A DNA stretch of 64,000 nt from NCBI GenBank assembly GCA_016206805.1, contig JACQQX010000054.1, positions 3,743-67,742 on the forward strand, in the 5' to 3' direction. A model generated the notes under the pieces. It saw only the letters and a program-made list of their open reading frames with translations. It was not told the DNA's origin and made no database searches. The first letter of the stretch is position 1, and the number at the start of each line of letters is the position of its first letter. The DNA is from Candidatus Omnitrophota bacterium. GTDB taxonomy: Bacteria; Omnitrophota; Gorgyraeia; 2-02-FULL-51-18. Shown here in pieces: positions 388 to 36,817 of the stretch. The position numbers were made by a program, and so were the translations under genes.

Positions 388-455
388 GTCGTGAGTCGTG
401 GGTCGTGAGTGGTGGGCAAGCGTTTGCTCACGACCCACGACTCACCCCTCACGAC
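388..455. repeat. Family R1 GC-rich long hairpin (copy a), built from GTCGTGAG-type units
   Basis: GTCGTGAGTCGTGGGTCGTGAG (388..409) pairs with CTCACGACCCACGACTCAC (428..446). It fills the kdsD-kdsC spacer. A related copy lies at 24050..24117. Confidence 0.8.
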
Positions 456-15158: not shown

Positions 15159-17026
15159 CTAATCCTTCGCACGGCTTGTTTTATTGCATCTTCATCTCCT
15201 GAAGGCTGGCGATGCCCATTGCCGGAAGATTCGCTTAAAGCCCGGCTGGCCGCTTGCGGCAGGGTTTCCGGCGTAACGATTGTAATTTTTCCTTGATCCG
15301 ATAAATGACTCAAAAAATCCATGACTTTGGCCTTGGGCGGCGTTCCTGACGGCAGAAACACCAACACCGGCTTTCCCCCCGCAACGGCTTCAGAAACCAT
15401 GGACACCGACTCTCCGGAAACGATAAAAAGATCGGACTGTATCAAAATCGCTTCCATCGTCCCGGCCGGATTGGACTGGTTGGCAATCACTAAAAGCGGG
15501 CAACGTTGGGTATCGGCAAATGTTTTTTTGAGCAAGGCTTCCGCCGCTGCCGGCGTTCTTCGTGAAGAGGTGATCAGTAACAGCGCTTGGGTTTCTTCGC
15601 CGGCCCGGCCGACCGCCTGAGCCAATCCCTCAGTCAAGGCATTGCCCACCAAAAAACCGATGTGTTTTTTGCCCTGGGCTAGCGGCGCGCCTGTGGACTG
15701 GGGCTTTGAAGAAAGCGCCATGGATGTCACAAAAACATTCTCCGCGGCCGTCAAATGGTCATGCAGCGGCACGATCACCGCGTTAAACCGTTTCACGGGG
15801 ACTGACGGCTTATGAATCACCAGCGATTTGGCGCTATTTTCCTTTTTCACAAAAAGATTCACTCCCACCAGCGACGAGCCGCAGGAAATCACCGCGTCCG
15901 CGTAATTGGCGATAATCGACTGATAGGTGCTAGGCTCCAAAACCCATTGATAAAAAACCCCCGGAAACGGAACATGCCCGCGGCAGAGAATACAAAGCGC
16001 TTCCGCTGATCGCCGTAAAAATGGGTTTTTATACCGAACATCGATGATGGTGACGCGCGTGCGTTCATCGGCTATGCCGCACCTGGCGCGCTGCTCGCGG
16101 AAAACCTCCGCGGCGGCCATGGACTGACGATAATGGCCTGCCTTGCCATCGCTCAACACCACGACAAAACGGTCCGGGGAAGATTTCCAGCGCCGATGAG
16201 CCCACAACCACTGACTGGGATAGGCGCGGATTTTTTCTTCAAGACGGTTGGCAAACTTTTGCAAGACGTCGCCTTCCAGCGGCTCCTCGATTTCCAAAAG
16301 ATGGCCTCTGCCCTGACGGGAAACAAAAATAGGAAAGATCAGCGCGTGGGTCCGCTCCGCGAAAACCTCGGCGCCGGTCGGGCTGGACGACAACCTTCCA
16401 AAAAACCGGACAAAGGTTCCGGTTTTTCCGGCGTCCTGGTCTCCCAGGATTCCAATAATCCGCCCGCTTTTAAGCGCGCGCAGGATTTCACGAACCGGCA
16501 TGCCCTTGCCTATCATTTGCGCGCCTTGCGAACTGCGAAGCCCATTGAGAAACGCGTCGGAACGGGGATGTTTTTGCGCGCGCGCCAGCGCCAAAAGCGG
16601 GTAGCCTTTAAGGCCCGCCACCACATTTAAAATCTCCCAATTGCCAAAGTGCGCCGATAAAAAAATGATCCCCCGTCCGCTAGCCAGCGCCCGCTCAAAT
16701 TTTTCAAGACCGGTGATTTTGATCCGTTCTTCCAAGTACCGCTTGTCCATCTCGGGAAAACGGAGCATCTCCACCGCCGTCATCGCCACATGCCCAAAAG
16801 ACTGCCGCGCAATGCGCTTCATTTGGCGCCGGTCGAGCTCTCCCGCAAAAACAGATCGGACGTTTTTCATCGCGATCGGGCGCCTTTTGGACATCAAATA
16901 CACGAGAAAACCGATACCGCGCGCCACCGCCAAAGCCGCAGCAGGCGGAAGAAAACGGAAAATAAACCGCGCCGAACGGGCGGTGTTAAGGATTAAGGCA
17001 TCTTCGAAGGAAATCTTCTTCATCAT
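15155..17026 (-). CDS. LpxL/HtrB-type lipid A late acyltransferase fused to an ELM1/DUF1022-type domain
   Basis: 623 aa. N-terminal lysophospholipid acyltransferase family (AHFGNWE...GILGDQD). C-terminal ELM1-like motifs (LSDGKAGH, VIVPLHD, ITSSRRTP, SGESVSMVSEAVAGGKPV). Confidence 0.8.
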   Translation of the reverse strand: MMKKISFEDALILNTARSARFIFRFLPPAAALAVARGIGFLVYLMSKRRPIAMKNVRSVFAGELDRRQMKRIARQSFGHVAMTAVEMLRFPEMDKRYLEERIKITGLEKFERALASGRGIIFLSAHFGNWEILNVVAGLKGYPLLALARAQKHPRSDAFLNGLRSSQGAQMIGKGMPVREILRALKSGRIIGILGDQDAGKTGTFVRFFGRLSSSPTGAEVFAERTHALIFPIFVSRQGRGHLLEIEEPLEGDVLQKFANRLEEKIRAYPSQWLWAHRRWKSSPDRFVVVLSDGKAGHYRQSMAAAEVFREQRARCGIADERTRVTIIDVRYKNPFLRRSAEALCILCRGHVPFPGVFYQWVLEPSTYQSIIANYADAVISCGSSLVGVNLFVKKENSAKSLVIHKPSVPVKRFNAVIVPLHDHLTAAENVFVTSMALSSKPQSTGAPLAQGKKHIGFLVGNALTEGLAQAVGRAGEETQALLLITSSRRTPAAAEALLKKTFADTQRCPLLVIANQSNPAGTMEAILIQSDLFIVSGESVSMVSEAVAGGKPVLVFLPSGTPPKAKVMDFLSHLSDQGKITIVTPETLPQAASRALSESSGNGHRQPSGDEDAIKQAVRRIS

Positions 17027-17966
17027 GGATCTGAAATTCGATTTGAAGCGTTAAAAGATTGCTGCCGTCAAGTTCCGGCCATGCTCCCTTGGAGATCACG
17101 GGTTCGATTCGAATATAATCCTTTTCCGTTGTCACAACATCGGTCACGGAAAGCCTGCGGCATTCCTGCAAGAAGTTTGTCAAATCTTTGCGGGTATACG
17201 GATGGTGATCATCGAAACGCGCGGCAAACGCGATTTCAATCCCGAGATTTTCAACTGTTTTTTCAAAAGAATAAGGATCGCCGATCGCGCACAATGTCGA
17301 GGCTTTCCTGCCGCGCATCTCTCCCAGCGTTACCGTACGGGAGCGTCGCGCGTCCCAAAAACGCATGGGTTTGTGCGAAGCCTCAAAAATCAGCGCATTG
17401 GGCTTGAGCTCCTGAAGCTTTTGCCGCACTCCCTGCACATTCTTGGCGCCGATATTGCTTTTGGTGAGCACAAAAAGATGGGCGCGTTTCAGATTTTCCA
17501 GCGGCTCGCGCAAAATCCCTGCGGGGATGAGCTTGCCATTGCCAAAAGGCAGCGTCGTGTTGATATTCACAATGTCCAGATCCCGATGAAGCCGACGATG
17601 CTGAAAACCGTCGTCCAGCACCAGAATTTCAGCGCCGTATTTTTGAACGGCCGTTTTGGCCGAACGCACCCGGTCCCGACCGACGATAACGGGAATATTG
17701 GGAAGGCTGCGGCGCAGCTCCTCCACCTCATCCCTGCCGTAACCGCGGATCAATACCGCCACTTTTTTTCCATAATAAGCCAAGTCACGCGCGAGCTTTG
17801 TCACCAGCGGCGTTTTTCCAGTGCCGCCCCAAGTGATATTGCCAACGCTGATCACCTTGGCTTGACTTTTACGAATCCGTCCCGGAAAAAGACGGTAAAG
17901 CGTCTCATCCAACCATAAACCAAAATGGTAAAAAGACGTCAGGGTGGAACTCAAAAATTTTTTCAT
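16986..17966 (-). CDS. lpxK: tetraacyldisaccharide 4'-kinase
   Basis: VISVGNITWGGTGKTPLV P-loop typical of LpxK. I prefer the ATG at 17966 (ATGA overlap with the waaA stop). The ORF track extends to 18038. Confidence 0.88.
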   Translation of the reverse strand: MKKFLSSTLTSFYHFGLWLDETLYRLFPGRIRKSQAKVISVGNITWGGTGKTPLVTKLARDLAYYGKKVAVLIRGYGRDEVEELRRSLPNIPVIVGRDRVRSAKTAVQKYGAEILVLDDGFQHRRLHRDLDIVNINTTLPFGNGKLIPAGILREPLENLKRAHLFVLTKSNIGAKNVQGVRQKLQELKPNALIFEASHKPMRFWDARRSRTVTLGEMRGRKASTLCAIGDPYSFEKTVENLGIEIAFAARFDDHHPYTRKDLTNFLQECRRLSVTDVVTTEKDYIRIEPVISKGAWPELDGSNLLTLQIEFQIHDEEDFLRRCLNP

Positions 17967-20288: not shown

Positions 20289-22512
20289 CCGCGCCGTCCT
20301 TTGCTTCGTTTTTGGAAGTTTCGGAGGGCAAGCGGTTGGCGATGAAGGTGCATTCGGGGTATTGGCTGCAGCCATAAAAAGAGCGGCCTTTGCCGGAACG
20401 GGCGCGGCGCCGAACAAGTTGGCCATTGCCACATTGAGGGCATGCCACGCCGGTCGGCAGGGATTTCGCGTTTTTACAATCCGGCCAACCGGAGCAGCTC
20501 ATAAACCGTCCATGACGGCCCCATTTGATAACCATGGGTTTTCCGCATTTGTCGCAAAGCTCATCCGTCGGTTCCGCTTCCCGTTTCACGGTCTGCATTT
20601 GATCTTTGGCTACATTCACTTCCCCGCTGAAGTGGCCATAAAAGTTGCGCACCACCTCCACCCACTGAGCCTTCCCTTCCTCAATCCTGTCCAAGTCCTC
20701 TTCCATGGTCGCTGTGAAATCAAATTCCAACAGCTTCGAAAAAGATTTAACGAGTAAATCCGTGATTAGCATCCCAAGCTCCGTCGGCAAGAGAGCGCCG
20801 CCTTCGCGCCGGATATAGTCGCGGCTGGTCAGTGTTTGAATAATCGGCGCATACGTCGAAGGCCGACCGATCCCCTGCTCTTCAAGCGCCTTCACAAGCG
20901 AAGCGTCCGTGAAACGTCCGGGCGGCTTTGTAAAATGTTGATTGGGTTCGATTTTGACCAGCTGCAATGCTTCGGCGACGGCCAGTGGCGGAAGAATCTT
21001 GTCCGCATCTTCGGTCGTGCGGCCCGACACCGCCAAAAACCCCGGAAACTCAATACGGCTGCCGGTGGACCGGAAAATACAAATGTCTGCGGTGATATCC
21101 ACCGTGACCTGCTCCACAATGGCCGGCGTCATTTGGCTGGAAACATGCTGCTCCCAGATCAGCGAATATAATTTAAACTGGTCCGGCGCTAAATACCGCT
21201 CAATATCCTGAGGGCGCCTGAGAACAGACGTGGCGCGAATAGCTTCATGCGCTTCCTGCGCTTGTTTTTTGGATTTATAAACATTCGGTTTGGCGGGCAA
21301 ATAATCTTTTCCATACGTTTTGGAAATAAACTCACGAACCTCTGTCATCGCCCCGTCAGAAATCCGCACGGAATCAGTGCGCATGTACGTGATAAGACCC
21401 ACGCTTCCCTCGCTGCCGATATCAACGCCCTCGTAAAGGGATTGGGCAATGCGCATGGTTTTGGCCGCCGGGAAACGTAAAGCGTTATAGGCGGACTGCT
21501 GGAGCTTGCTGGTCGTAAAAGGGGCCGAAGGATTGCGTTTTTTATTTTGTTTCTTTAAATCTTTGACGACAAATGCGGCAGACTCGATCTTTTTAAGAAT
21601 GCCCGCGGCTTCTTCTTGTTTTTTCAAATCGGCTTTTTCTTCTCCGATTTTTTCAAGCTTGGCCGTAAAAGACGGGTATTCGCCTTTTTCCTTTTTAAGT
21701 TCGGCTTCTATCGTCCAGTATTCTTCGGGCTTAAACGCCTGGATTTCCCGCTCGCGATCCACGATGAGACGAAGCGCCACCGACTGCACGCGGCCGGCTG
21801 AAAGACCTTTGCCTACCTTCTGCCACAAAAGCGGACTGAGGGAATAACCGACGAGCCTATCCAGTACGCGGCGGGCCTGCTGGGCATCCACCAAGTCCAT
21901 ATTGATCTCGGTGGGATGTTCAAACGCCTTGGTGACGGCTTCTTTAGTGATTTCATTGAACACGACGCGGGTGACTTTCTTGCCTTCACCCAACTCGTTC
22001 TTCAAATGCCAGCTGATCGCCTCGCCCTCACGGTCCGGATCGCAGGCCAGGTAAATCTCGCTTTTATTTTTGGCTTTGGCTTTCAATTCCTTCAGCATTT
22101 TCTTCTTGTCGCGCACCACAATGTACTGCGGCTTAAAGTCGTGCTCGATGTCGATGCCCATCTTGCTTTTGGGCAGATCGACGAGGTGCCCCATGGAAGC
22201 GGCCACTTCGAAGCCGGGGCCCAAATATTTATGAATGGTTTTGCATTTGGCCGGAGATTCGACGATCACCAGAGCCCCTGAATGGTGAGCCTGTCGAACC
22301 ATCTTTTTGCGGGCCCCTCCTCCGACAAATTGAACGATTTCCACCACATCTCCTTCCTTCAAAAGGGTTTCGGCAAGCTGGTCCTTGGGCAAAATTTCAT
22401 AATTAAGCTCCACCACCACCCGCTCTTTGGGGAGCGAAAGCCGCGCCAGAAGCCCGGACAAGGAAAGCGGCTTATCAAAAACCTTTTTTTCACCGTTCAG
22501 CTGAATATTCAT
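20272..22512 (-). CDS. topA: DNA topoisomerase I with an in-frame N-terminal ThiS-like ubiquitin-fold domain
   Basis: 746 aa. Residues 1-66 are ThiS-like and end VEIVQFVGGG. There is no stop, and the frame continues ARKKMVRQAHHSGALVIVESPAKCK (Toprim), then the topoisomerase IA core and C-terminal Zn-ribbon Cys4 motifs. An internal ATG lies at 22302. Confidence 0.9.
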   Translation of the reverse strand: MNIQLNGEKKVFDKPLSLSGLLARLSLPKERVVVELNYEILPKDQLAETLLKEGDVVEIVQFVGGGARKKMVRQAHHSGALVIVESPAKCKTIHKYLGPGFEVAASMGHLVDLPKSKMGIDIEHDFKPQYIVVRDKKKMLKELKAKAKNKSEIYLACDPDREGEAISWHLKNELGEGKKVTRVVFNEITKEAVTKAFEHPTEINMDLVDAQQARRVLDRLVGYSLSPLLWQKVGKGLSAGRVQSVALRLIVDREREIQAFKPEEYWTIEAELKKEKGEYPSFTAKLEKIGEEKADLKKQEEAAGILKKIESAAFVVKDLKKQNKKRNPSAPFTTSKLQQSAYNALRFPAAKTMRIAQSLYEGVDIGSEGSVGLITYMRTDSVRISDGAMTEVREFISKTYGKDYLPAKPNVYKSKKQAQEAHEAIRATSVLRRPQDIERYLAPDQFKLYSLIWEQHVSSQMTPAIVEQVTVDITADICIFRSTGSRIEFPGFLAVSGRTTEDADKILPPLAVAEALQLVKIEPNQHFTKPPGRFTDASLVKALEEQGIGRPSTYAPIIQTLTSRDYIRREGGALLPTELGMLITDLLVKSFSKLLEFDFTATMEEDLDRIEEGKAQWVEVVRNFYGHFSGEVNVAKDQMQTVKREAEPTDELCDKCGKPMVIKWGRHGRFMSCSGWPDCKNAKSLPTGVACPQCGNGQLVRRRARSGKGRSFYGCSQYPECTFIANRLPSETSKNEAKDGADGSDE

Positions 22513-23543
22513 ATCTTGGAAAATCTCTTTCCCGGAAGTTCCTTGACCAGCCCCTTAAGCTCCAGTAGAGCCAGAAACGAAGCCGTCTCGCTCACGGTAA
22601 AGCCTGTTTCCGAAATAATGCCGTCCATCTGCAAAGCCTCGGCGTCTAAAAGATCGAGAATCTTATTTTCTTCCTTGCCCAGTGCCAGATTTTTCAGACG
22701 GTTTTCTCCGTTTTGGGTTTTTGCTTCCAATCCCAGATCGCTCAAAATATCGGCGACGGAAGTCACCATCTTGGCGCCTTGTTTTAAAAGCGCGTTGGTT
22801 CCGAGCGACCGGGACGAATCAATATTGCCGGGCACCGCGAAAACTTCACGGCCCTCTTCCAGCGCGCAGTCCGCGGTGATCAAAGCCCCGCTTTTTGCTT
22901 TGGCCTCGACCACCAGCACGGCATTTGAAAGGCCGCTGATGATGCGGTTTCGCATGGGAAAATAAGCGGCTAGCGGCGCCATGCCCATCGGGTATTCGGA
23001 AATCAAAGCCCCTCTTTTTAAAATAGCTTCGGCCAATTTTTTGTGCTGACGGGGATAAATCGTCGAAAGACCGCAGCCAAAAACAGCCAGTGTCACGCCA
23101 TCCGCCTCCAGCGCTCCCTCATGCGCGGCGGCGTCAATGCCCTCCGCCAAACCACTGACAATCGTCACTCCGGCGGCGGCCATCTGGCGGGAAAAACGTT
23201 TGGCGGTTTCCCGTCCGTAAGTCGAGGCCAGCCGCGAACCCACCACGGCAATCTTCTGTCCGCCGGCGGGCAAGCTGCCCTTCACATACAAAAGAATAGG
23301 GGGATCGTAAATGGCTTTGAGCTCGGCAGGATAGCGCTCGTCAAAAATCCCAATCATGTCGACGCCGGCATCTTCGGCTTTTTTTATTTCAACATCCGCT
23401 TTTTTGAGAAGACCAGGATCGTTGAGGCCGGCCAGGACCGCATCCAAACTTCCGGAGGACTCATAAAGCCGTTTAAAAGTAACGGCGCCCATACCCTCCG
23501 CCAGTGTGATGGCCATCAGTTTTTTCAACGCTTCGGGTTTCAT
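22509..23543 (-). CDS. dprA: DNA processing protein DprA (Smf)
   Basis: 344 aa. VVGSRLASTYG...SGLAEGIDAAAHEGAL...VVEAKAKSGALITA is a typical DprA Rossmann core. Confidence 0.9.
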   Translation of the reverse strand: MKPEALKKLMAITLAEGMGAVTFKRLYESSGSLDAVLAGLNDPGLLKKADVEIKKAEDAGVDMIGIFDERYPAELKAIYDPPILLYVKGSLPAGGQKIAVVGSRLASTYGRETAKRFSRQMAAAGVTIVSGLAEGIDAAAHEGALEADGVTLAVFGCGLSTIYPRQHKKLAEAILKRGALISEYPMGMAPLAAYFPMRNRIISGLSNAVLVVEAKAKSGALITADCALEEGREVFAVPGNIDSSRSLGTNALLKQGAKMVTSVADILSDLGLEAKTQNGENRLKNLALGKEENKILDLLDAEALQMDGIISETGFTVSETASFLALLELKGLVKELPGKRFSKI

Positions 23544-24049: not shown

Positions 24050-24117
24050 GTCGTGGGTCGTGAGTCGTCGGTCGTGAGAAAGCGGTTGCCCACGGCTCAC
24101 GACCGACGACTCACGAC
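24050..24117. repeat. Family R1 GC-rich long hairpin (copy b)
   Basis: GTCGTGAGTCGTCGGTCGTGAG (24057..24078) forms a perfect 22-bp stem with CTCACGACCGACGACTCACGAC (24096..24117), with a 17-nt loop. It abuts the aroK ATG. Confidence 0.85.
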
Positions 24118-30341: not shown

Positions 30342-32015
30342 TTACGCCATATCCATAATTTCTTCGAACGATTTGCCGGACGGAATCATCGGGAACACAT
30401 TCTCCTCCGCTTCAACGATAAAATCCAACACACAAGGCCTGTCTTTGATAGTCAGCGACCAACGGATCGCCTCCTCCGCCTCTTGCTTGGTCTTCGCGTG
30501 ACGGCCCACGCCACCGTAGGCCTCAACAAGTTTCACAAAATCAGGATTGCCCTGCATGTCGGAGCTGGAATAGCGGTGGTTGTAAAACGCTTCCTGCCAC
30601 TGACGCACCATGCCCAGATAATTGTTGTTGATGATGGCGATTTTCACCGGCAGCTTGTGCACCACGGCCGTGGCCAGCTCTTGAATATTCATCTGGATCG
30701 AACCGTCGCCGGTGATGCACACCACGATTTTATCGGGAAACGCGAATTGCGCTCCAATGGCCGCGGGGAAACCGTAACCCATGGTTCCCAAACCGCCGCT
30801 GGTTAAAAACTGGTTGGGGCCGCTGACTTTATAATACTGCGCCGCCCACATCTGGTGCTGACCCACGTCGGTCGAAACGATGGCGTCACTGCCGTAAATC
30901 TCACAAAGCTTTTGGATGGCGTATTGGGGCCTCAACTGGCCGTCGTCGCGGTAACGCAGCGGGCTTTCCTTTTTCCATTTTTCGATTTCCGAAAGCCATT
31001 CTTTGGTGTCCGCGGGCTCAACGATTTTATTGAGCTCATGCAGGATCTGACGCACGTCCCCCACGATCGGCACGTCCACTTTCACGTTTTTGGAAATGGC
31101 CGAAGGGTCGACGTCCATGTGAATGATTTTCGCTTTCGGGGCAAATTTCTTCAAGTCCCCGGTCACGCGATCATCAAAGCGCGCGCCCACCGCGATCAAA
31201 AGATCGCATTCATGAACCGCGCGATTGGCGTAAACCGTCCCATGCATGCCCAGCATCCCCATAAACTGCGGATGCGTTCCCGAAACGCCGCCCAAACCCA
31301 TCAGCGTATTGGTGCAGGGCGCTTTGATTTTCTCGACAAACTTAATCAATTCCTTGGCGGCGCCTGAAATAATAACGCCACCGCCCGTGTACACTACCGG
31401 ACGTTTGGACTCGGCGATCATCTTGGCGGCTTTTTTAATCTGTCCCGGATGGCCTTCCAATACGGGTTTGAAACCACGGATATTCACCGTTTCCGGGTAC
31501 TGAAAATCAAATTGCGCAAGGCTGATGTCAGACGGGAAATCAATCAAAACCGGCCCGGGCCGGCCATGTGTGGCCAGCCAAAACGCTTCTTTCAAAACGC
31601 GCGGCAAGTCGTTGACGTCCTTCACGAGAAAATTATGCTTGGTGATCGGGCGGGTAATGCCCGTCACATCAGCTTCCTGAAAAGCATCATTGCCAATCAA
31701 AAAAGATTTGACCTGGCCGGTAACCACCACCAGCGGAATAGAATCCATATAGGCGTCGGCAATCCCGGTCACGGTATTGGTTGCGCCCGGTCCCGACGTC
31801 ACGACCACGACCCCCGGCTTGCCGGTAGAGCGCGCATAACCCTCGGCCATATGCACCGCACCCTGCTCGTGCCGAACCAAAATCACCTTAAACTTCGCGT
31901 CGTAAAGCGCGTCAAAAAGCGGCAAACACGCCCCACCCGGGAGCCCAAAAACATACTCCACGCCCTCTTTGGAAAACGCCTCCACCACCGCCTGAGCACC
32001 CGTTATTTTTGGCAT
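30342..32015 (-). CDS. ilvB: acetolactate synthase large (catalytic) subunit
   Basis: 557 aa. ThDP enzyme with GLGTMGYGFPAAIGA...GDGSIQMNIQEL. Confidence 0.95.
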   Translation of the reverse strand: MPKITGAQAVVEAFSKEGVEYVFGLPGGACLPLFDALYDAKFKVILVRHEQGAVHMAEGYARSTGKPGVVVVTSGPGATNTVTGIADAYMDSIPLVVVTGQVKSFLIGNDAFQEADVTGITRPITKHNFLVKDVNDLPRVLKEAFWLATHGRPGPVLIDFPSDISLAQFDFQYPETVNIRGFKPVLEGHPGQIKKAAKMIAESKRPVVYTGGGVIISGAAKELIKFVEKIKAPCTNTLMGLGGVSGTHPQFMGMLGMHGTVYANRAVHECDLLIAVGARFDDRVTGDLKKFAPKAKIIHMDVDPSAISKNVKVDVPIVGDVRQILHELNKIVEPADTKEWLSEIEKWKKESPLRYRDDGQLRPQYAIQKLCEIYGSDAIVSTDVGQHQMWAAQYYKVSGPNQFLTSGGLGTMGYGFPAAIGAQFAFPDKIVVCITGDGSIQMNIQELATAVVHKLPVKIAIINNNYLGMVRQWQEAFYNHRYSSSDMQGNPDFVKLVEAYGGVGRHAKTKQEAEEAIRWSLTIKDRPCVLDFIVEAEENVFPMIPSGKSFEEIMDMA

Positions 32016-32066
32016 AAAAACCCTTTCAATGATAAGTTTTGCATTGTAACACGAACAGGGGATCTA

Positions 32067-32342
32067 TCACAAATTCTTCAAAAACCTGCGGATTTCATCG
32101 TGAGAACCTATAAGAAGAAACTCCACAACGTCCTCATTCTTGCGAAAAAGGATGCGTTCGTTCAATCCCGCGCGAATCTCCCAAATCTGGCGCCCCAACG
32201 GCGTTAGCCCAAGACCATGCGGAAGATGACCGGTCTCAAAAAAGGCTGTCGTCAAACGAATCGCTTTTTTAACCTGTTTTTTCTTGGCATCCGGGAGGGA
32301 GGCCAAACCTCGATCAAAGACAGAGGCTGAAAAATACCGCAT
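32067..32342 (-). CDS. RelE/ParE-superfamily-like toxin
   Basis: 91 aa, directly downstream (4-nt gap) of an AbrB-type antitoxin. Pattern ...LGRQIWEIRAGLNERILFRKNEDVVEFLLIGSHDE resembles RelE/ParE-fold toxins. Family assignment is tentative. Confidence 0.55.
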   Translation of the reverse strand: MRYFSASVFDRGLASLPDAKKKQVKKAIRLTTAFFETGHLPHGLGLTPLGRQIWEIRAGLNERILFRKNEDVVEFLLIGSHDEIRRFLKNL

Positions 32343-32346
32343 TTGT

Positions 32347-32619
32347 CTAGAGGCTGTCTAAATGACGAAGAAAACCCTCCGCCGAGGCAAACAGCTTTCC
32401 GTTTTTCTGATGAGCGATTTTCAGAAGCTTTTGCAGTTCTTCTTCGGTATAGGCTTCCGTCGGGCGAACTTCCATCTTCGCCAATCGAACCGACTCCGAT
32501 TTCTCATCCACCATAAATCCTACCGTATCCCCTTTTTCCAGTGCGCCAATGGTCATTCGCACCTTCTTGGGAAGGGTGATCTGGCCCTTTGGGCCCAGCG
32601 TTGCCGTGAACCAAGTCAT
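32347..32619 (-). CDS. AbrB/SpoVT-domain antitoxin
   Basis: MTWFTATLGPKGQITLPKKVRMTIGALEKGDTVGFMV is a swapped-hairpin motif. The start could be 32619 (ATGA overlap with the upstream small ORF) or 32637. Confidence 0.7.
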   Translation of the reverse strand: MTWFTATLGPKGQITLPKKVRMTIGALEKGDTVGFMVDEKSESVRLAKMEVRPTEAYTEEELQKLLKIAHQKNGKLFASAEGFLRHLDSL

Positions 32620-32840
32620 GGTTTTCCTCCTTTCCATGATTCCTTACTTAAAGGATACACGAAGCGATTCGGAATGTCAAATTCTAGATCAATAAACCAT
32701 TCCAGAGCGGGCTCTTTGACTTCCCGGATCCTGGGATTCCAAAGCATCCATTTTCCATTGACTTGCCGAACATCCCAATAGCCCTCAACCGAAGGGGTCA
32801 CCGAAGGGGCCGAAGGGGTCAAGTCTTTTCCTGACTGCAT
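32616..32840 (-). CDS. possible small ORF (74 aa) upstream of the AbrB/RelE-like pair; uncertain
   Basis: The stop overlaps the antitoxin ATG as ATGA. The N-terminal codons (MQSGKDLTP...) lie inside the 27-nt repeat motif, so the true start is unclear. No recognisable family. Confidence 0.25.
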   Translation of the reverse strand: MQSGKDLTPSAPSVTPSVEGYWDVRQVNGKWMLWNPRIREVKEPALEWFIDLEFDIPNRFVYPLSKESWKGGKP

Positions 32841-32877
32841 GCCGAAGGGGTCAAGTCTTTTCCTGACTGCATGTTTG
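32790..32877. repeat. CGAAGGGG(T/C) short repeats plus two tandem copies of the 27-nt motif GGGGTCAAGTCTTTTCCTGACTGCATG
   Basis: Motif copies at 32815..32841 and 32847..32873. CGAAGGGG units at about 32790, 32802, 32811 and 32843. Related to 7296..7384. Confidence 0.8.
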
Positions 32878-32963
32878 GTGAATCTTTGAATTTACCGGAC
32901 CAGGTCCGGTTTAATTCATGCCGTTGACAACACGTACGCTATGTGGTACGCCTTCTGTGTGTG

Positions 32964-32983
32964 TTTAGGTGTCAGTCCTCGAC
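32964..32983. repeat. left terminal inverted repeat of the RayT unit
   Basis: TTTAGGTGTCAGTCCTCGAC is the perfect reverse complement of 33912..33931. It overlaps the transposase stop codon. Confidence 0.9.
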
Positions 32984-33874
32984 TTTCGACATTTGGATAG
33001 CCTGCTCTAGCTTTGTCAGTCTATTTCTCAGATCTTTGTCGCGGAGAAGTCTCGGCTCCAGTCTTCTGACTGAGGCACTTACGGCCGAATGGGAAATATT
33101 GAAGCGCTCCCCTATTTGCCTTTGTGTCGCACGCGAGAACTTCCACATCGCATAAATGGCTGTTTTTTTATCATGGCCCTCAAGATGTTTGATCACGTCT
33201 TCGGGCGGTTTCCTAAACAACGCCTTTTTGCCTGCAAAGTCTTTGTTTTTCTTCGGTGAGATCTTGGCTTTCAACCGGTCCAGGAATGCTTCCGATCCGA
33301 TCATAAACCCTCCGATAGCTTCCTTGACGGGGTCTCGACCGGCTTCAAGGCCCTCCATCACAAACCGCCGATAAGCCGCCTTTGATTCAAAGCTTTCAAG
33401 CGTAAACTCCCTGTGAAGGTAGTCGGGCGCTTTTTCCTTAAGGTAGTGCTTCATGCTGGACCAGGGGTGATCTTCCGGTTTCTGGACCATCTTGGCTCTG
33501 ACAGGGTTTAAGTGGACATAGCGCGACAGCTCTAGAAAATAGTGGTCTTTGTCCACCAAGAGCGCCTTGTAGCGGCCCTGAAAGAGATGACCGTAGCGCT
33601 TGTGCCTGCGGTTAAAGCGAACGGTGTAAAGCCCGATAAGCCGTTTCATGGCATGAGAGAGATTGGAATCTTTTGTTTCAAGAAGCAAATGAAAGTGATT
33701 GGGCATCAAGCTGTAGGCATGAACAAGGAAATCAAATCGAGCGGCACAGTCGGCCAAGATCCCAAGGAACAGCTCATAGTCTACGTCGCTTCTGTAAATC
33801 TCCTTTCTCTCATTGCCGCGAGAGTAAACGTGATAAACGGCGTTTGGGAATTCCATTCTTAAGGGCCTTGCCAT
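32972..33874 (-). mobile_element. REP-associated tyrosine transposase-like (RayT / IS200-like Y1 HUH) gene with a C-terminal DnaA-C-like HTH
   Basis: 300 aa. AVYHVYSRGNERKEIY, HUH motif MPNHFHLLLE, catalytic Tyr region LSRYVHLNPVRAKM, and C-terminal AIYAMWKFSRATQRQIGERFNISHSAVSASVRRLE. Confidence 0.8.
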
Positions 33875-33911
33875 GCCGTGATGGTATCAAACGGGAAGAG
33901 GGTTGTCAAAT

Positions 33912-33931
33912 GTCGAGGACTGACACCTAAA
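33912..33931. repeat. right terminal inverted repeat of the RayT unit
   Basis: GTCGAGGACTGACACCTAAA. With CAAAT at 33907..33911 the repeat extends to 25 bp, allowing a 7-nt indel on the left side. Confidence 0.9.
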
Positions 33932-33971
33932 CTTTTCGGTAATTGCTCGATCAAGGTGTCTCCTAATCATG

Positions 33972-34008
33972 GTTACATTTTAACCACGCAATGGTTAAAA
34001 TGTAACCT
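33972..34008. repeat. perfect 16-bp stem / 5-nt loop hairpin
   Basis: GGTTACATTTTAACCA-CGCAA-TGGTTAAAATGTAACC, located between the RayT unit and the alr 3' remnant. Confidence 0.85.
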
Positions 34009-34030
34009 TCTATTTCCCTTCAGCTGCCTT

Positions 34031-34092
34031 TGTAAACCCTGAGATACGGCTACTGAGTCCGCACACGATTTCGTACGGAATGGCCCCCATCT
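34031..34092 (-). pseudogene. displaced remnant of an alanine racemase 3' end (direct repeat copy C)
   Basis: The core 34043..34090 is 44/48 identical to 37708..37755 inside alr. It encodes ..GAIPYEIVCGLSSRI.., compared with ..GTIPYEIVCGLSSRI.. in intact alr. Confidence 0.75.
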
Positions 34093-34234
34093 TTACAATG
34101 TGTCAATTTGAACTTTTAACTACTGATACTTTTACAAGTTCCGATCAAGAAACCGCTTGTAATTGATAAAATTGATGAGTATATTGTAATTCTGATTTAA
34201 ATTACAAATTTTTAAGTATTCAAAAATTCAAAAT

Positions 34235-36817
34235 ATGATGAAACCAACTGCCCATCTCAGAACTGTCGTTTCTTTTCTGGTGGGAGCCATGATCTTAGTG
34301 AGAGTGGCTTCCGTGCACGCGGCCGTACAGACGACCGCGGGCAATGAGACCATTAACGCAAGCGGCATCGCCGAGGGCGTGGTCTTCGGGGGCAATCACA
34401 CTCTGACCGTGTCTGCGTCCACCAACGTCGGAGCGACCAGCGGGTTGAGTTTCAATACCAATAATGTGGTTCGGGGTACCGTCACGTTCGAAGGCAGCTC
34501 GACTTTAAGCGGCGCCATCGGGCAGAACAGCGCCGCCAACGTCGTGAATACGGTCAATGTCGACGGGGCCAACGGCACAACCGTGACCATTGGAGGAACG
34601 GGGACCATTGAGGCGTTGGCGATCGATTTCGGAGGCGACGGCACGCTCGTGATAGGCGATGGTGGCGCTATCGATAATGGCAATTCGCTCGCCGGCGGCT
34701 CGGCGGTCAATGCCGACACGGCCGGACAAGGAGAGCTGCAGTTTGCCGGGAGCGCAGATGTTTACGGCGCCATAGGAACTACACGCGGTCTGCGATTGAT
34801 CACCATTAAAGCGGAGCAGGTTGTTATCCAGGAAGGCAATTCAGTCGTCGCCACCACGGTCAACTTTGCCGCTGACGGCGGCGAGCTCAGATTGGCCGCT
34901 ACCAATTCCAATGTCACCGCGAATTTTACCGCCACAACTTCAGGACAAGGAACGCTGATCCACAGTAACGGCGATCACACGATTACGGGAGAAATAGGGA
35001 CTTCCTCGGCGGCCATTAAACAGGTACAAGTTGGGACCGGCACCAGCGCTTTTAGCGGCAATATCTATGCGGGTGATCTCAATTTCAACGCGGACGGTAC
35101 CGCGACGATCGCCGCCTCAAATGTCGTCAGTGGAACGATCACGACGGATACCGACGGAACTGGCACGGTGACTTATGCCGGATCCACGACCGTCGGCGCG
35201 GCTATCGGTACCGCGGTCACTGCCGCTTTAAAGGCCATCAATGTCAACGGAGGAACGTTCAGTTCCGGTTTCAATATCTCCGCCGACACGATCACCATAT
35301 CCAATGACTCCACGCTTATGAAAATGACGGCTGCCACGACGATCACCGCGGCGACCGATTTTACTTTTGAGAACAGCACGACGGCGGGACTTGACCTCGG
35401 AAGTTATCTGCTGACCCTGACGGGCAAGATCGATCTTAACGACAGCAACGCGCTCGCGACGACCATCAACAGCGCCTCGGATTTCGGACGGATCACCGCT
35501 TCGGGAAACTCCACGTCGAACGCGGCCACGACCGTCAGTGTTACCGTGAACGGGTATGTCGCCAATGGCAGCACCTACAAGATCATCGACGGCGCCGCCG
35601 GTGGGACTGTCGCCGCTCCAACGACGGTGACTGACGACAGCGTCTTGACCTCTTTCACGGGCTCGGGATCCGCGGGTGATCTGACATTAACGGCCACGAC
35701 GACGGCATTACCGACCATCTCTACCGACACAAAGGGTGATAGGGCCGGAACCGCGCTTGACGCTGACGCGTTGTCAGGTACGATGAACTCGACCTATCTA
35801 GCCATTGGGCGCTTGGGTTCCGCGACCGCGGTAACCGAGGCATTGAAGCAGCTCAATCCCCAAAGTTCCGATGCCCCTGTACGCACGACCTTGCAGGTTG
35901 CAAGCGATATCGGCCGTATCGTTTTTGAAAGGCTCGCTTCGGATGGAGGTCTCTCAGGCATTTCATCGGGGGATGCATTTTCAGCGAAGTCGATCTGGGC
36001 AAAACTTGTGGGCGGTTATGCCGACCAGAACGCTAGAAAGGGCGAGGAAGGGTATTCCGCAATTTATGGAGGCGCAACCCTAGGTGTAGATGCCGAGATC
36101 GATGACGCGGACACACTCGGCCTGGCTTTCACCTACGCTCAAAGCGGGATCAATTATGACACGTCTGTCTTCGGAAATACTTTGATTGACGGCTATCAAT
36201 GGACCCTTTATCACGAACATGACTTCAGTGACCGCTGGCGTCTGTACAGTCTCATGGCGTTCGGCCTGAACCACTACGACGGAAGCCGCACAGCCAATAT
36301 CGGCTCGGACACCTATCGGGCGACGTTCGATCATTGGGGCCAGCAGTACACGGCTCAAACGGAGCTTGGGTATGATCTGAGCAGCGGGCCTGTGACCGTG
36401 ACTCCTCTGGCCTCGATCGGGTACACACACCTGACGCTTGGCGGCTATCGGGAGATCGGAGCGGGAGAGATCAGCCTTCAGGTAGACAGGCAACAGTACG
36501 ATACGGTCGAATCCGGATTGGGTCTGAAACTAACGCATCCGGCGAAAGCGGGAAGCAATCAGCCCTCCACCGATCTTCACGGGATGTGGTACTGGGACAT
36601 GGTTGGAGACAGGACCGATATCAGCTCAAATTTTTCGGGCGGCGCCACGTCATTCAAAACGCTGGGAGTCGAACCGGATCGACACCGATTTGTTGTCGGA
36701 GGACTGCTTAATTTTAGCTGCGGAAGCCATACCGATGTTTCCGTAGGATACGATGTGGAGTTTAAAGACAGATTCATCAGTCATAATGGGATGCTGAAAG
36801 TGCGGCATCAGTTCTGA
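34235..36817 (+). CDS. autotransporter (type Va) outer-membrane protein
   Basis: 860 aa and the only plus-strand gene. Signal peptide MMKPTAHLRTVVSFLVGAMILVRVASVHA. Cys-free T/G/A/N/S-rich passenger. C-terminal beta-barrel domain from about 35990 (SIWAKLVGGYADQN...) ending in the OMP-type terminal ...LKVRHQF. Confidence 0.8.
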   Translation: MMKPTAHLRTVVSFLVGAMILVRVASVHAAVQTTAGNETINASGIAEGVVFGGNHTLTVSASTNVGATSGLSFNTNNVVRGTVTFEGSSTLSGAIGQNSAANVVNTVNVDGANGTTVTIGGTGTIEALAIDFGGDGTLVIGDGGAIDNGNSLAGGSAVNADTAGQGELQFAGSADVYGAIGTTRGLRLITIKAEQVVIQEGNSVVATTVNFAADGGELRLAATNSNVTANFTATTSGQGTLIHSNGDHTITGEIGTSSAAIKQVQVGTGTSAFSGNIYAGDLNFNADGTATIAASNVVSGTITTDTDGTGTVTYAGSTTVGAAIGTAVTAALKAINVNGGTFSSGFNISADTITISNDSTLMKMTAATTITAATDFTFENSTTAGLDLGSYLLTLTGKIDLNDSNALATTINSASDFGRITASGNSTSNAATTVSVTVNGYVANGSTYKIIDGAAGGTVAAPTTVTDDSVLTSFTGSGSAGDLTLTATTTALPTISTDTKGDRAGTALDADALSGTMNSTYLAIGRLGSATAVTEALKQLNPQSSDAPVRTTLQVASDIGRIVFERLASDGGLSGISSGDAFSAKSIWAKLVGGYADQNARKGEEGYSAIYGGATLGVDAEIDDADTLGLAFTYAQSGINYDTSVFGNTLIDGYQWTLYHEHDFSDRWRLYSLMAFGLNHYDGSRTANIGSDTYRATFDHWGQQYTAQTELGYDLSSGPVTVTPLASIGYTHLTLGGYREIGAGEISLQVDRQQYDTVESGLGLKLTHPAKAGSNQPSTDLHGMWYWDMVGDRTDISSNFSGGATSFKTLGVEPDRHRFVVGGLLNFSCGSHTDVSVGYDVEFKDRFISHNGMLKVRHQF

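What the first reader, a model, noticed from the sequence alone, without database searches (positions are those of the whole stretch)
32964..33931. RayT-type HUH tyrosine transposase inside a 968-bp unit bounded by perfect 20-bp inverted repeats
- The 300-aa protein has the Y1 HUH signature (NHFHLLLE, YVHLNPVRA) and a C-terminal DnaA-C-like HTH.
- It is flanked by TTTAGGTGTCAGTCCTCGAC (32964..32983) and its exact reverse complement (33912..33931). The repeat extends to 25 bp with one 7-nt indel. The left repeat overlaps the stop codon.
- RayTs are normally flanked by inverted REPs and are thought to mobilise REP/BIME sequences. This window is unusually rich in palindromic intergenic elements (families R1-R4).
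- None of the families I could read share the flanking sequence. Either the cognate REP lies elsewhere in the genome, or the unit behaves as an IS-like element.
- The unit sits exactly between a TA cassette with GGGGTC repeats and the alr islet, in the most rearranged part of the window.
Basis: partly seen in the sequence, partly recalled or inferred. Interest (0 to 1): 0.55.

Follow-up and report, generated by a model that had tools for sequence, protein, structure and literature searches.

The report
Inverted-repeat-bounded tyrosine transposase element (TIRtron)
This is a small, apparently intact jumping-gene unit of an already described but little-studied type: a single-strand-DNA-cutting tyrosine transposase gene framed by inverted repeats. 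Near-identical copies of a close relative sit in several unrelated places, which suggests the whole unit moves.

Summary
A 300-aa ORF (32972-33874, minus strand) lies between inverted repeats with a perfect 20-nt core. Ungapped, the repeats extend to 29 nt (27/29), and they occur nowhere else in the 64 kb.

The protein has an HUH/Y1 nuclease domain. Its best structural match is E. coli TnpA-REP (4ER8). Its C-terminal HTH matches DnaA domain IV.

This architecture is already published as TIRYT/TIRtron (Di Nocera 2013). It corresponds to TnpA-REP subclass 2.1 (Quentin 2018) and RAYT Group 1 (Bertels 2017).

The same repeats flank homologs at 79%, 70%, 60% and 59% protein identity. A 70%-identical relative, also exactly 968 bp, occurs in six contigs at 99.8-100% identity, with four unrelated right flanks and three unrelated left flanks. 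The family therefore behaves like an insertion sequence.

The gene-proximal repeat carries the -35 box of a conserved promoter. The distal repeat encodes the last six codons.

A REP-type hairpin is not supported. No target duplication is seen. This genome's copy number is unknown.

Verdict: ordinary new member of a known kind. Two side results are new: indirect evidence of autonomous mobility, and unexplained short "stutter" duplications at element ends.

The parts
32964..33931 (.). The whole 968-bp unit (TIRtron): inverted repeat, gene, inverted repeat
   Evidence: Two relatives have units of exactly the same length: L001 1792-2759 and the P0007 element, TATAGGTG...CACCTAGA.
33904..33932 (.). 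Gene-proximal (5') terminal inverted repeat. Read from the outer end on the minus strand: (G)TTTA GGTGTCAG TCCTCGACATT TGACA
   Evidence: I1. The outer GKGTCAG is invariant in 21 of 21 arms from 11 elements. It fits the published GGGGWSAS motif at 7 of 8 positions.
32963..32991 (.). Gene-distal (3') terminal inverted repeat. It encodes the last six codons (MSKVED) and the TGA stop
   Evidence: In relatives the same DNA motif, ACTGACAC, is read in another frame (..SKTDT* in L116/L119 versus ..VED* here). The constraint is therefore on the DNA.
32972..33874 (-). TIRYT gene, 300 aa, apparently intact
   Evidence: It keeps all 38 columns that are invariant in a 42-sequence family alignment. An identical protein is recorded once, from a Candidatus Omnitrophica MAG contig of 73,248 bp (P0001).
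33458..33859 (-). HUH/Y1 nuclease domain (residues 6-139), with HUH = H60-F-H62 and catalytic Y119 in the motif Y---NP
   Evidence: Pfam Y1_Tnp covers residues 11-121. NCBIfam REP_Tyr_transpos covers residues 6-139 at 72.7 bits, below its cutoff of 80. Foldseek gives 4ER8 at E 6.6e-7, then the ISDra2 and IS608 TnpA structures.
32990..33181 (-). C-terminal helix-turn-helix domain (residues 232-295), similar to DnaA domain IV
   Evidence: The family profile matches DnaA domain IV structures 3PVP, 1L8Q, 2HCB, 2Z4R and 8BTG at E 3.7e-5 to 1.1e-4. The single sequence gives HTH_24 at 22.1 bits (cutoff 21.9) and a weak Bac_DnaA_C hit. Several homologs carry precomputed PF08299 hits.
33881..33909 (-). 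Predicted promoter. The -35 box TTGACA (33904-33909) lies inside the 5' repeat, followed by a 17-nt spacer and a TG-extended -10 box TACCAT (33881-33886), 6 nt before the ATG
   Evidence: scores it 10 of 12, the best site in the region. The same TTGACA-17 nt-TGATA-like layout is kept in L001, L108, L106, L119, L122 and L123. Function is inferred, not shown.

Best explanation
The 968-bp unit is a TIRtron. This is an IS-like element whose only gene encodes a TIRYT, a RAYT-clade HUH/Y1 tyrosine nuclease fused to a C-terminal DnaA-domain-IV-like HTH. The gene is framed by about 29-nt terminal inverted repeats.

**Proposed working**
- The HTH domain binds the repeats as double-stranded DNA.
- The HUH/Y1 domain nicks and rejoins one DNA strand at the outer edge of each repeat (...CTGACACC+TAAA), through a 5'-phosphotyrosine intermediate at Y119.
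- The whole unit moves without making a target-site duplication.
- The 5' repeat also supplies the -35 box of the transposase promoter, so transposase binding should repress its own gene.

**Shown**
- The domain architecture, catalytic residues and fold.
- Conservation of the repeats around homologs down to about 30% identity.
- DNA-level constraint on the 3' repeat.
- Near-identical copies of related units in unrelated flanks, with boundaries at the repeat ends.
- Absence of a target duplication.

**Inferred**
- Which domain binds what, and the strand chemistry. These follow by analogy with TnpA-REP and IS608.
- Autoregulation.
- Whether this particular copy is active.
For: **Protein**
- Family and fold assignments.

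**The repeats travel with the gene**
- L001 (79% identity): 28-nt arms.
- L003 (59%): perfect 29-nt arms.
- L002 (60%): 26-nt arms.
- Distant relatives L004, L005, L010, L012 and L122 have arms starting GGGGTCAG or GGTGTCAG.

**Mobility of the unit**
- The P0007 element (70% protein identity to the window protein) is 968 bp and 99.8-100% identical in six contigs.
- Its flanks fall to about 20-30% identity immediately outside TATAGGTG...CACCTAGA. There are 4 different right flanks and 3 different left flanks.
- Two contigs start exactly at the left end.
- Two contigs of one long-read Pirellulales MAG share only a 766-bp repeat-bounded unit, at 93.6% identity.
- The 953- and 956-nt contigs L106 and L107 consist of the element alone.

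**Derivatives**
- L087 is an internally deleted copy of about 290 bp that keeps both ends.
- Solo ends occur in L086/L090 and L089.

**Literature**
- The architecture matches TIRYT/TIRtron, including repeats that overlap gene ends and the GGGGWSAS motif (PMC3733652).
- It also matches subclass 2.1, with its Bac_DnaA_C/HTH C-terminus and no REPs nearby (PMC6006769).
- RAYT Group 1, which maps onto subclass 2.1 in 291 of 292 sequences, is the most IS-like RAYT group.
Against: - For the window's own copy there is no second copy and no empty site. The exact protein is on record from one contig only.
- The element was assembled through inside a 73-kb contig, which argues for one or few copies in this genome.
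- Some relatives sit stably in one context across samples (P0016, P0029).
- Published surveys find low copy number for class 2 genes and state that formal evidence for autonomous mobility is lacking (PMC6006769).
- Multiple contexts in short-read metagenome contigs could partly reflect strain mixtures or chimeric joins. L109 and L110 share a right flank but differ on the left.
- No biochemical data exist for any TIRYT in the literature I could search.
- How a single-tyrosine enzyme would use ends that present the same sequence on opposite strands is unresolved.
Confidence: 0.78

Rival explanations
1. It is a domesticated, immobile RAYT-like gene. The gene itself no longer moves. Its product acts in trans on short repeat-derived sequences (REPIN- or MITE-like) scattered elsewhere in the genome, and the flanking repeats are merely the nearest pair of such sequences.
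For: - The nearest curated model is REP_Tyr_transpos and the best fold match is TnpA-REP.
- Solo ends and a 290-bp deletion derivative exist in metagenomes.
- Some TIR families are moderately repeated in published genomes (PMC3733652).
- The unit appears to be single copy in this contig.
- The P0016 and P0029 copies are stable across samples.
Against: - No extra copy of the repeat exists in 64 kb, and the GGGGWSAS motif is not enriched there (9 found against 11.2 expected).
- The arms are not GTAG palindromes and fold weakly.
- Whole units, not just ends, recur in unrelated flanks.
- The metagenome scan for the repeat gave only 9 loci, far from REP-like abundance.
Confidence: 0.15
2. This particular copy is a stranded relic. 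It belongs to the mobile family but is now fixed and inactive in this genome.
For: - The two arms differ at 2 of 29 positions, and both differences fall in the inner TTGACA-like part of the 3' arm.
- There is no junction 'stutter' at its own ends, unlike many relatives.
- The protein is on record from a single contig.
Against: - The ORF is intact and keeps all 38 family-invariant residues, including H60, H62 and Y119.
- The promoter scores 10 of 12.
- The outer 20 nt of both arms are identical.
- Degenerate inner 3' arms are also seen in the recently mobile P0007 element.
Confidence: 0.35
3. The inverted repeats are only regulatory sites (an operator at the promoter and a site at the gene end) for an HTH protein. 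They have no role in recombination.
For: - The 5' arm contains the -35 box.
- The protein has an HTH domain.
Against: - The most conserved part is the outer GKGTCAG, not the promoter part.
- The limits of identity between copies in different flanks coincide with the outer repeat edges.
- The 3' arm is kept at the DNA level across reading frames.
- An HUH/Y1 catalytic core is conserved.
Confidence: 0.03

Closest known systems
TIRYT / TIRtron (Di Nocera, De Gregorio and Rocco 2013, BMC Genomics 14:522). Equivalent to TnpA-REP subclass 2.1, subgroup 2.1.2 (Quentin et al. 2018, BMC Genomics 19:475) and to RAYT Group 1 (Bertels et al. 2017)
   Same: - A RAYT-like Y1 gene of about 300 aa, flanked by long terminal inverted repeats instead of GTAG REPs.
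- Repeats at a fixed short distance from the gene, overlapping its end.
- An outer motif fitting GGGGWSAS (7 of 8 here, exact in relatives).
- A C-terminal Bac_DnaA_C/HTH-type domain, and the Y---NP motif.
- Occasional solo, dimeric or clustered repeat copies.
   Different: - The host is a Candidatus Omnitrophota MAG, and the sequence family is distinct (GGTGTCAG...TTGACA arms).
- The published work gives no evidence that the unit moves. Here a sister element is seen in several unrelated flanks.
- As far as I could find, promoter-in-repeat, frame-independent conservation of the 3' arm and junction 'stutters' are not described in those papers.
E. coli TnpA-REP (RAYT) and its REPtron (Ton-Hoang et al. 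2012; Messing et al. 2012, PDB 4ER8)
   Same: - Best structural match of the N-terminal domain.
- The same HUH/Y1 catalytic layout.
- The gene is flanked by repeats in inverted orientation.
   Different: - TnpA-REP is 165 aa and has no HTH domain.
- Its flanking repeats are GTAG-tagged hairpin-forming REPs present in hundreds of copies.
- It is a single-copy domesticated gene. None of these three features is met here.
IS200/IS605 family (IS608, ISDra2)
   Same: - An HUH/Y1 fold.
- No target-site duplication.
- A small, single-gene mobile unit.
   Different: - The IS200 model scores only 15.6 bits against a cutoff of 55.
- Those elements have different subterminal hairpins on one strand and no terminal inverted repeats.
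- Their transposase is about 130-150 aa without an HTH domain.

Membership tests
TIRYT/TIRtron (TnpA-REP subclass 2.1) | HUH motif and single catalytic tyrosine in a Y---NP motif | tested here: met
   The window protein has H60-F-H62 and Y119-V-H-L-N123-P124. H60 is at least 90% conserved in the 42-sequence alignment; H62, Y119, N123 and P124 are invariant. Pfam Y1_Tnp gives E 7.8e-13.
TIRYT/TIRtron (TnpA-REP subclass 2.1) | Closer to the RAYT clade than to IS200 transposases | tested here: met
   REP_Tyr_transpos scores 72.7 bits and transpos_IS200 scores 15.6 bits. The top Foldseek hit is 4ER8. The protein falls below NCBIfam's equivalog cutoff of 80 bits, as expected for a sister subclass.
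TIRYT/TIRtron (TnpA-REP subclass 2.1) | C-terminal extension with a Bac_DnaA_C / HTH_23 / HTH_28-type helix-turn-helix | tested here: met
   The family profile matches DnaA domain IV structures at E 3.7e-5 over residues 232-295. The single sequence gives HTH_24 at the cutoff and weak Bac_DnaA_C and HTH_23 hits. The AlphaFold model is helical over residues 236-295.
TIRYT/TIRtron (TnpA-REP subclass 2.1) | [quoted passage not shown] | tested here: met
   The arms are 29 nt with 27/29 complementary. They are conserved in L001, L002, L003 and more distant relatives.
TIRYT/TIRtron (TnpA-REP subclass 2.1) | Repeat shares the GGGGWSAS motif (true of many, not all, published TIRs) | tested here: inconclusive
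   The window has GGTGTCAG, a 7 of 8 match. The motif is exact (GGGGTCAG) in L004, L005, L010 and L122.
TIRYT/TIRtron (TnpA-REP subclass 2.1) | Falls inside subclass 2.1 / RAYT Group 1 in a phylogeny or with the authors' profiles | not tested
Assignment rests on the features above.
RAYT / REPtron in the strict sense | Flanking repeats are short GTAG-tagged palindromes that form stable hairpins | tested here: not met
   There is no GTAG tag. Folding free energy of the window's arms is -2.8 to -3.8 kcal/mol with z-scores of -0.2 to -0.5. No compensatory change occurs at any of 9 candidate pairs in 21 arms, and the stem is broken in several 3' arms.
RAYT / REPtron in the strict sense | Cognate repeat family dispersed at high copy in the host genome | tested here: inconclusive
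   No extra copy occurs in the 64-kb window. The metagenome scan found only 9 loci with the repeat core.
IS200/IS605 | Transposase matches the IS200/IS605 TnpA models | tested here: not met
   NF033573 scores 15.6 bits against a cutoff of 55.
IS200/IS605 | Ends carry dissimilar subterminal hairpins on one strand, without terminal inverted repeats | tested here: not met
   The ends are inverted repeats.
Autonomous insertion sequence (behaviour) | Several near-identical copies with unrelated flanks and sharp common ends | tested here: inconclusive
   This is met for relatives: the P0007 element and the L015/L016 pair. It is not shown for the window's own element, which has one known copy.

The most novel reading that the evidence does not exclude
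TIRtrons are autonomous transposons driven by a RAYT-clade Y1 enzyme, a clade otherwise regarded as domesticated and for which 'formal evidence for autonomous mobility' is said to be lacking. The short tandem 'stutters' of the end junction are found at 7 of 30 ends against 2.4% of control sites. Under this reading they are footprints of repeated cleavage and rejoining, or of insertion into an existing end followed by collapse. They would then mark the cleavage site and reveal self-end targeting.
Probability: 0.4. Interest if true: 0.55.

Novelty: new member of a known kind. Interest (0 to 1): 0.3.

Why it matters
TIRYTs (subclass 2.1 / RAYT Group 1) are one of the largest groups of Y1 HUH proteins, yet nothing is known about what they do. 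They sit between true insertion sequences (IS200/IS605) and the domesticated REP-associated enzymes.

A compact, apparently intact 968-bp example with sharply defined ends is a convenient substrate for the first biochemical and genetic tests. A sister element shows signs of recent movement. Together these can address two questions: whether this branch still transposes itself, and how a single-tyrosine enzyme handles inverted-repeat ends.

For annotation, the practical message is that such genes with their repeats should be called as mobile-element units, not just 'transposase'.

Tried and rejected
- **REP-like hairpin in each arm (TGTCA-AAT-GTC-GAG-GAC-TGACA).** Folding energies are no better than shuffles for the window's arms. 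The 21-arm comparison shows no compensatory changes and broken pairs in several 3' arms. Rejected as a supported feature; not excluded.
- **Viral contig scan for the repeat core.** The 15 hits do not extend beyond the 16-mer and were treated as chance.
- **Metagenome scan.** It gave 9 loci. Only L086/L090, L087 and L089 carry full-length arms; L082-L085 and L088 share only the outer part.
- **Empty-site search for the window.** The closest homolog of the neighbouring autotransporter is 59% identical and has different upstream genes. Uninformative.
- **Empty-site search for the P0016 element.** I used its DUF1428 neighbour. The 84%-identical relative has a different downstream gene. Uninformative.
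- **L119 versus L120.** A 100%-identical block extends well beyond the element, to about 550 nt upstream. This is recombination of a larger segment and is not evidence for repeat-bounded movement.
- **L010 'two copies'.** They are a perfect 1464-bp tandem duplication, not two insertions.
- **Single-sequence phmmer against PDB.** It found nothing relevant; a family profile was needed.
- **Rfam on 32000-34400.** Nothing credible.
- **Target-site duplication or shared target motif.** None found among the P0007 flanks.
- **Plasmid search.** Only relatives at 40% identity or less, on 29 of 72,556 plasmids. The P. aeruginosa record with three hits is a toxin/immunity array with shorter RAYT-like genes and was not pursued.
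Full report
**1. What is there**

The window holds a 300-aa ORF on the minus strand at 32972-33874.

- **Flanking repeat.** The ORF is flanked by TTTAGGTGTCAGTCCTCGAC (32964-32983) and its exact reverse complement (33912-33931).
- **Uniqueness.** These are the only two matches in 64 kb, even at three mismatches. No dinucleotide-preserving shuffle produced one.
- **Length.** Without gaps the repeat runs 29 nt (32963-32991 / 33904-33932) with 27 of 29 complementary.
- **Overlap with the gene.** The left arm contains the stop codon and the last six codons.
- **Size.** The unit is 968 bp.

**2. The protein**

- **Family models.** Pfam places residues 11-121 in Y1_Tnp (E 7.8e-13). NCBIfam gives REP_Tyr_transpos 72.7 bits, under its equivalog cutoff of 80, and IS200 only 15.6 bits.
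- **Conserved residues.** A 42-sequence alignment of homologs (41-79% identity) has 38 invariant columns, all kept in the window protein. They include H62, the GHLFQGR block and Y119 in RY.HLNP; H60, the first histidine of the HUH motif H60-F-H62, is conserved in at least 90% of the sequences and is also kept here.
- **Structure.** The AlphaFold model is confident (pLDDT 87.8). Its best match among solved structures is E. coli TnpA-REP bound to a REP hairpin (4ER8, E 6.6e-7), followed by the ISDra2, IS608 and IS200 transposases.
- **C-terminus.** A profile of the alignment matches DnaA domain IV over residues 232-295 (3PVP, E 3.7e-5, and four other DnaA entries).

**3. The repeats belong to the gene family, not to this locus**

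- **Source and family size.** The identical protein comes from a Candidatus Omnitrophica MAG contig of 73 kb. More than 7,800 homologs were scored.
- **Close relatives.** The same arms flank the homolog in L001 (79% identity, 28-nt arms, unit again exactly 968 bp), L002 (60%) and L003 (59%, perfect 29-nt arms).
- **Distant relatives.** L004, L005, L010, L012 and L122 have arms starting GGGGTCAG or GGTGTCAG.
- **Conserved positions.** In 21 arms from 11 elements, G-GTCAG (positions 6 and 8-12) is invariant. An inner TTGACA-like block is nearly so.
- **DNA-level constraint.** The 3' arm is read in different frames in different elements (...VED* here...SKTDT* in L116 and L119). The conservation is therefore on the DNA, not the peptide.

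**4. Comparison with the literature**

- **Di Nocera et al. 2013** (PMC3733652) described RAYT-like genes flanked by long terminal inverted repeats instead of GTAG REPs. They named them TIRYTs and TIRtrons. They noted repeats that overlap the gene ends, a shared GGGGWSAS motif, and solo, dimeric or clustered repeat copies in some genomes.
- **Quentin et al. 2018** (PMC6006769) equate most TIRYTs with TnpA-REP subclass 2.1. This subclass has a Bac_DnaA_C/HTH-type C-terminus, no REPs nearby and a Y---NP motif. [quoted passage not shown]
- **Bertels et al. 2017** (PMC5581495) found Group 1 to be the most IS-like of the true RAYT groups, with 6.3% duplicates and 1.2% on plasmids.
- **Coverage.** Only those first two papers use the term TIRYT in the searchable library.

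The window's unit meets every architectural criterion I could test. The GGGGWSAS motif is matched at 7 of 8 positions. It fails the criteria of a strict REPtron and of IS200/IS605 (see the membership table). It is a new member of a known kind.

**5. Does the unit move?**

For the window's copy I cannot say. For the family the evidence is good but indirect.

- **P0007 element.** The protein P0007 is 70% identical to the window protein and is encoded on six contigs from six samples. The DNA is 99.8-100% identical over exactly 968 bp (TATAGGTGTCAG...CTGACACCTAGA). Identity drops to random level immediately outside, with four different right flanks and three different left flanks. Two contigs begin exactly at the left end.
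- **Element-only contigs.** Contigs of 953 and 956 nt (P0006) consist of the element alone.
- **Two copies in one genome.** Two contigs of one long-read Pirellulales MAG share only a 766-bp repeat-bounded unit at 93.6% identity.
- **Nested and neighbouring elements.** Elements sit next to or inside one another in L108 and L113, and L002 carries two different TIRtrons 570 nt apart.
- **Derivatives.** A deletion derivative of about 290 bp keeps both ends (L087). Solo ends occur in L086/L090 and L089.
- **No target duplication.** None is seen, as expected for HUH/Y1 chemistry.

*Caveats.* Short-read metagenome contigs can be chimeric across repeats. L109 and L110 share a right flank but differ on the left. 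Other relatives are stable in one context.

**6. Anatomy of the ends and likely working**

- **Layout from the outside in.** An AT-rich tetranucleotide comes first; it is mirrored at both ends in the closer relatives. Then follow GG(T/G)GTCAG and 11-12 nt, then TTGACA.
- **Promoter.** At the 5' end TTGACA is followed after 17 nt by a TGATA-type -10 box just upstream of the ATG. In the window this is TTGACA (33904-33909), a 17-nt spacer and TG-extended TACCAT (33881-33886), scoring 10 of 12, the best site in the region. The layout is conserved in relatives.
- **Two functional parts.** In several 3' arms the TTGACA part is degenerate while the outer part is intact. I read the outer 17-20 nt as the recombination site and the inner part mainly as the promoter.
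- **Hairpin.** A REP-like hairpin within each arm is not supported.
- **Mechanism I consider most likely.** The HTH binds the repeat. The HUH/Y1 domain nicks and rejoins a single strand at the outer boundary. The unit moves without target duplication. Occupancy of the 5' repeat represses the promoter. This is inference from TnpA-REP and IS608 biochemistry (PMC3333891, PMC3479197). No step has been shown for any TIRYT.

**7. Unexplained features**

- **Junction 'stutter'.** In 7 of 30 element ends, an 8-16-nt piece spanning the flank-repeat junction recurs in tandem within 60 nt outside the end. This compares with 2.4% of 2,550 control positions. An eighth case, L087, was mis-anchored in that script. 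Examples:
  - L119 3' end: CACCTAAGC four times.
  - L003: GACACCTTAT three times.
  - L122: GCAAGGGGGTCAG twice.
  - L001 and L087: TTTAGGTG twice.
- **The window's own ends have no stutter.** However, the adjacent CCGAAGGGGTCA x4 (32789-32821) is the same phenomenon in a second repeat family.
- **Possible origins.** One is insertion into an existing end followed by recombinational collapse. Another is repeated imprecise cleavage and rejoining. I could not discriminate between them.

**8. Surroundings**

The 175 nt between the toxin-antitoxin cassette (weak MazE-like and ParE-like hits) and the unit is a small cluster of other repeat families.

- **Sibling repeat family.** Two tandem 32-nt units, GCCGAAGGGGTCAAGTCTTTTCCTGACTGCAT (32809-32872), have relatives next to the same kind of element or solo end in L002, L003, L086/L090 and L089.
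- **Palindrome.** ACCGGACCAGGTCCGGT (32894-32910) matches a motif that flanks a 192-aa Y1 gene in L089 and is dispersed there.
- **Dispersal.** None of these families is found elsewhere in the window.
- **Base composition.** G+C is 0.40-0.50 across 32000-34250 against 0.52-0.60 on either side, in keeping with an accessory islet.

**9. Verdict**

The object is an ordinary, apparently intact member of the published TIRYT/TIRtron class in an Omnitrophota genome. The added value is indirect evidence that such units move as a whole, a clearer picture of the ends, and the junction stutters.

Noticed in passing
window 32789-32872: There are two tandem 32-nt units (GCCGAAGGGGTCAAGTCTTTTCCTGACTGCAT), plus CCGAAGGGGTCA repeated four times. 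They resemble solo ends of a sibling inverted-repeat family (GGGGTCAAG...TGAC). Relatives lie in the same orientation, 20-110 nt outside the same kind of element or solo end, in L002, L086/L090 and L089; a further copy lies about 540 nt downstream of the L003 element.
   Followed up: partly
window 32894-32910: A near-perfect palindrome, ACCGGACCAGGTCCGGT, is unique in the window. The same motif forms the inverted repeats around a 192-aa Y1_Tnp gene in L089 (1604-2182) and occurs about 5 times within 4 kb there.
   Followed up: partly
many loci, e.g. L119 3395-3443, L003 3890-3940, L122 3' flank, L001 1784-1800, L109 328-350: Short tandem 'stutter' copies of the flank-repeat junction lie just outside one end of the element. 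They occur at 7 of 30 ends against 2.4% of control positions. The origin is unknown.
   Followed up: partly
window 33971-34007: A perfect 16-bp stem with a 5-nt loop (GGTTACATTTTAACCA cgcaa TGGTTAAAATGTAACC) lies 40 nt outside the 5' repeat, between divergent genes. It has no other copy in the window and no credible Rfam match.
   Followed up: partly
window 33953-33963: AAGGTGTCTCC lies about 20 nt outside the 5' end. It resembles the outer repeat (TAGGTGTCAGTCC) and is inverted relative to the adjacent end. It may be an end remnant or chance (read).
   Followed up: no
window 391-445 and 24057-24117: Two long perfect hairpins built from GTCGTGAG-like units have 19- and 22-bp stems and 17-nt loops. 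They form another repeat family, unrelated to the finding.
   Followed up: no
L087 650-942: An element of about 290 bp keeps both inverted repeats, the promoter and the start codon. It lacks roughly residues 8-235 of the gene, so it is a miniature non-autonomous derivative.
   Followed up: yes
L108 1-1841; L113 943-1023; L002 935-3390: Elements are nested or adjacent. In L108 fragments of other TIRYT genes flank the P0007 element on both sides. L002 has two different TIRtrons, each just downstream of a paralogous 144- or 148-aa gene.
   Followed up: partly
L119 vs L120 (L119 1898-3640): A block of about 1.7 kb (DUF1428 gene, TIRtron and the start of the next gene) is 100% identical between two contigs whose upstream DNA is only 58-81% identical. 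A segment larger than the element has been exchanged.
   Followed up: yes
L126 (P. aeruginosa NZ_CP116719.1) 14239-14931, 16538-17230, 22170-22862: Three 230-aa RAYT-like 'transposase' genes are interspersed in an array of small toxin-domain and hypothetical genes (deaminase, EndoU, DNA/RNA non-specific endonuclease and glutamine deamidase domains), possibly toxin/immunity modules.
   Followed up: no
window 32067-32637: The two small genes left of the islet give only weak toxin-antitoxin signals: MazE_antitoxin at 20.7 bits and ParE_like at 18.5 bits, both below their cutoffs.
   Followed up: partly
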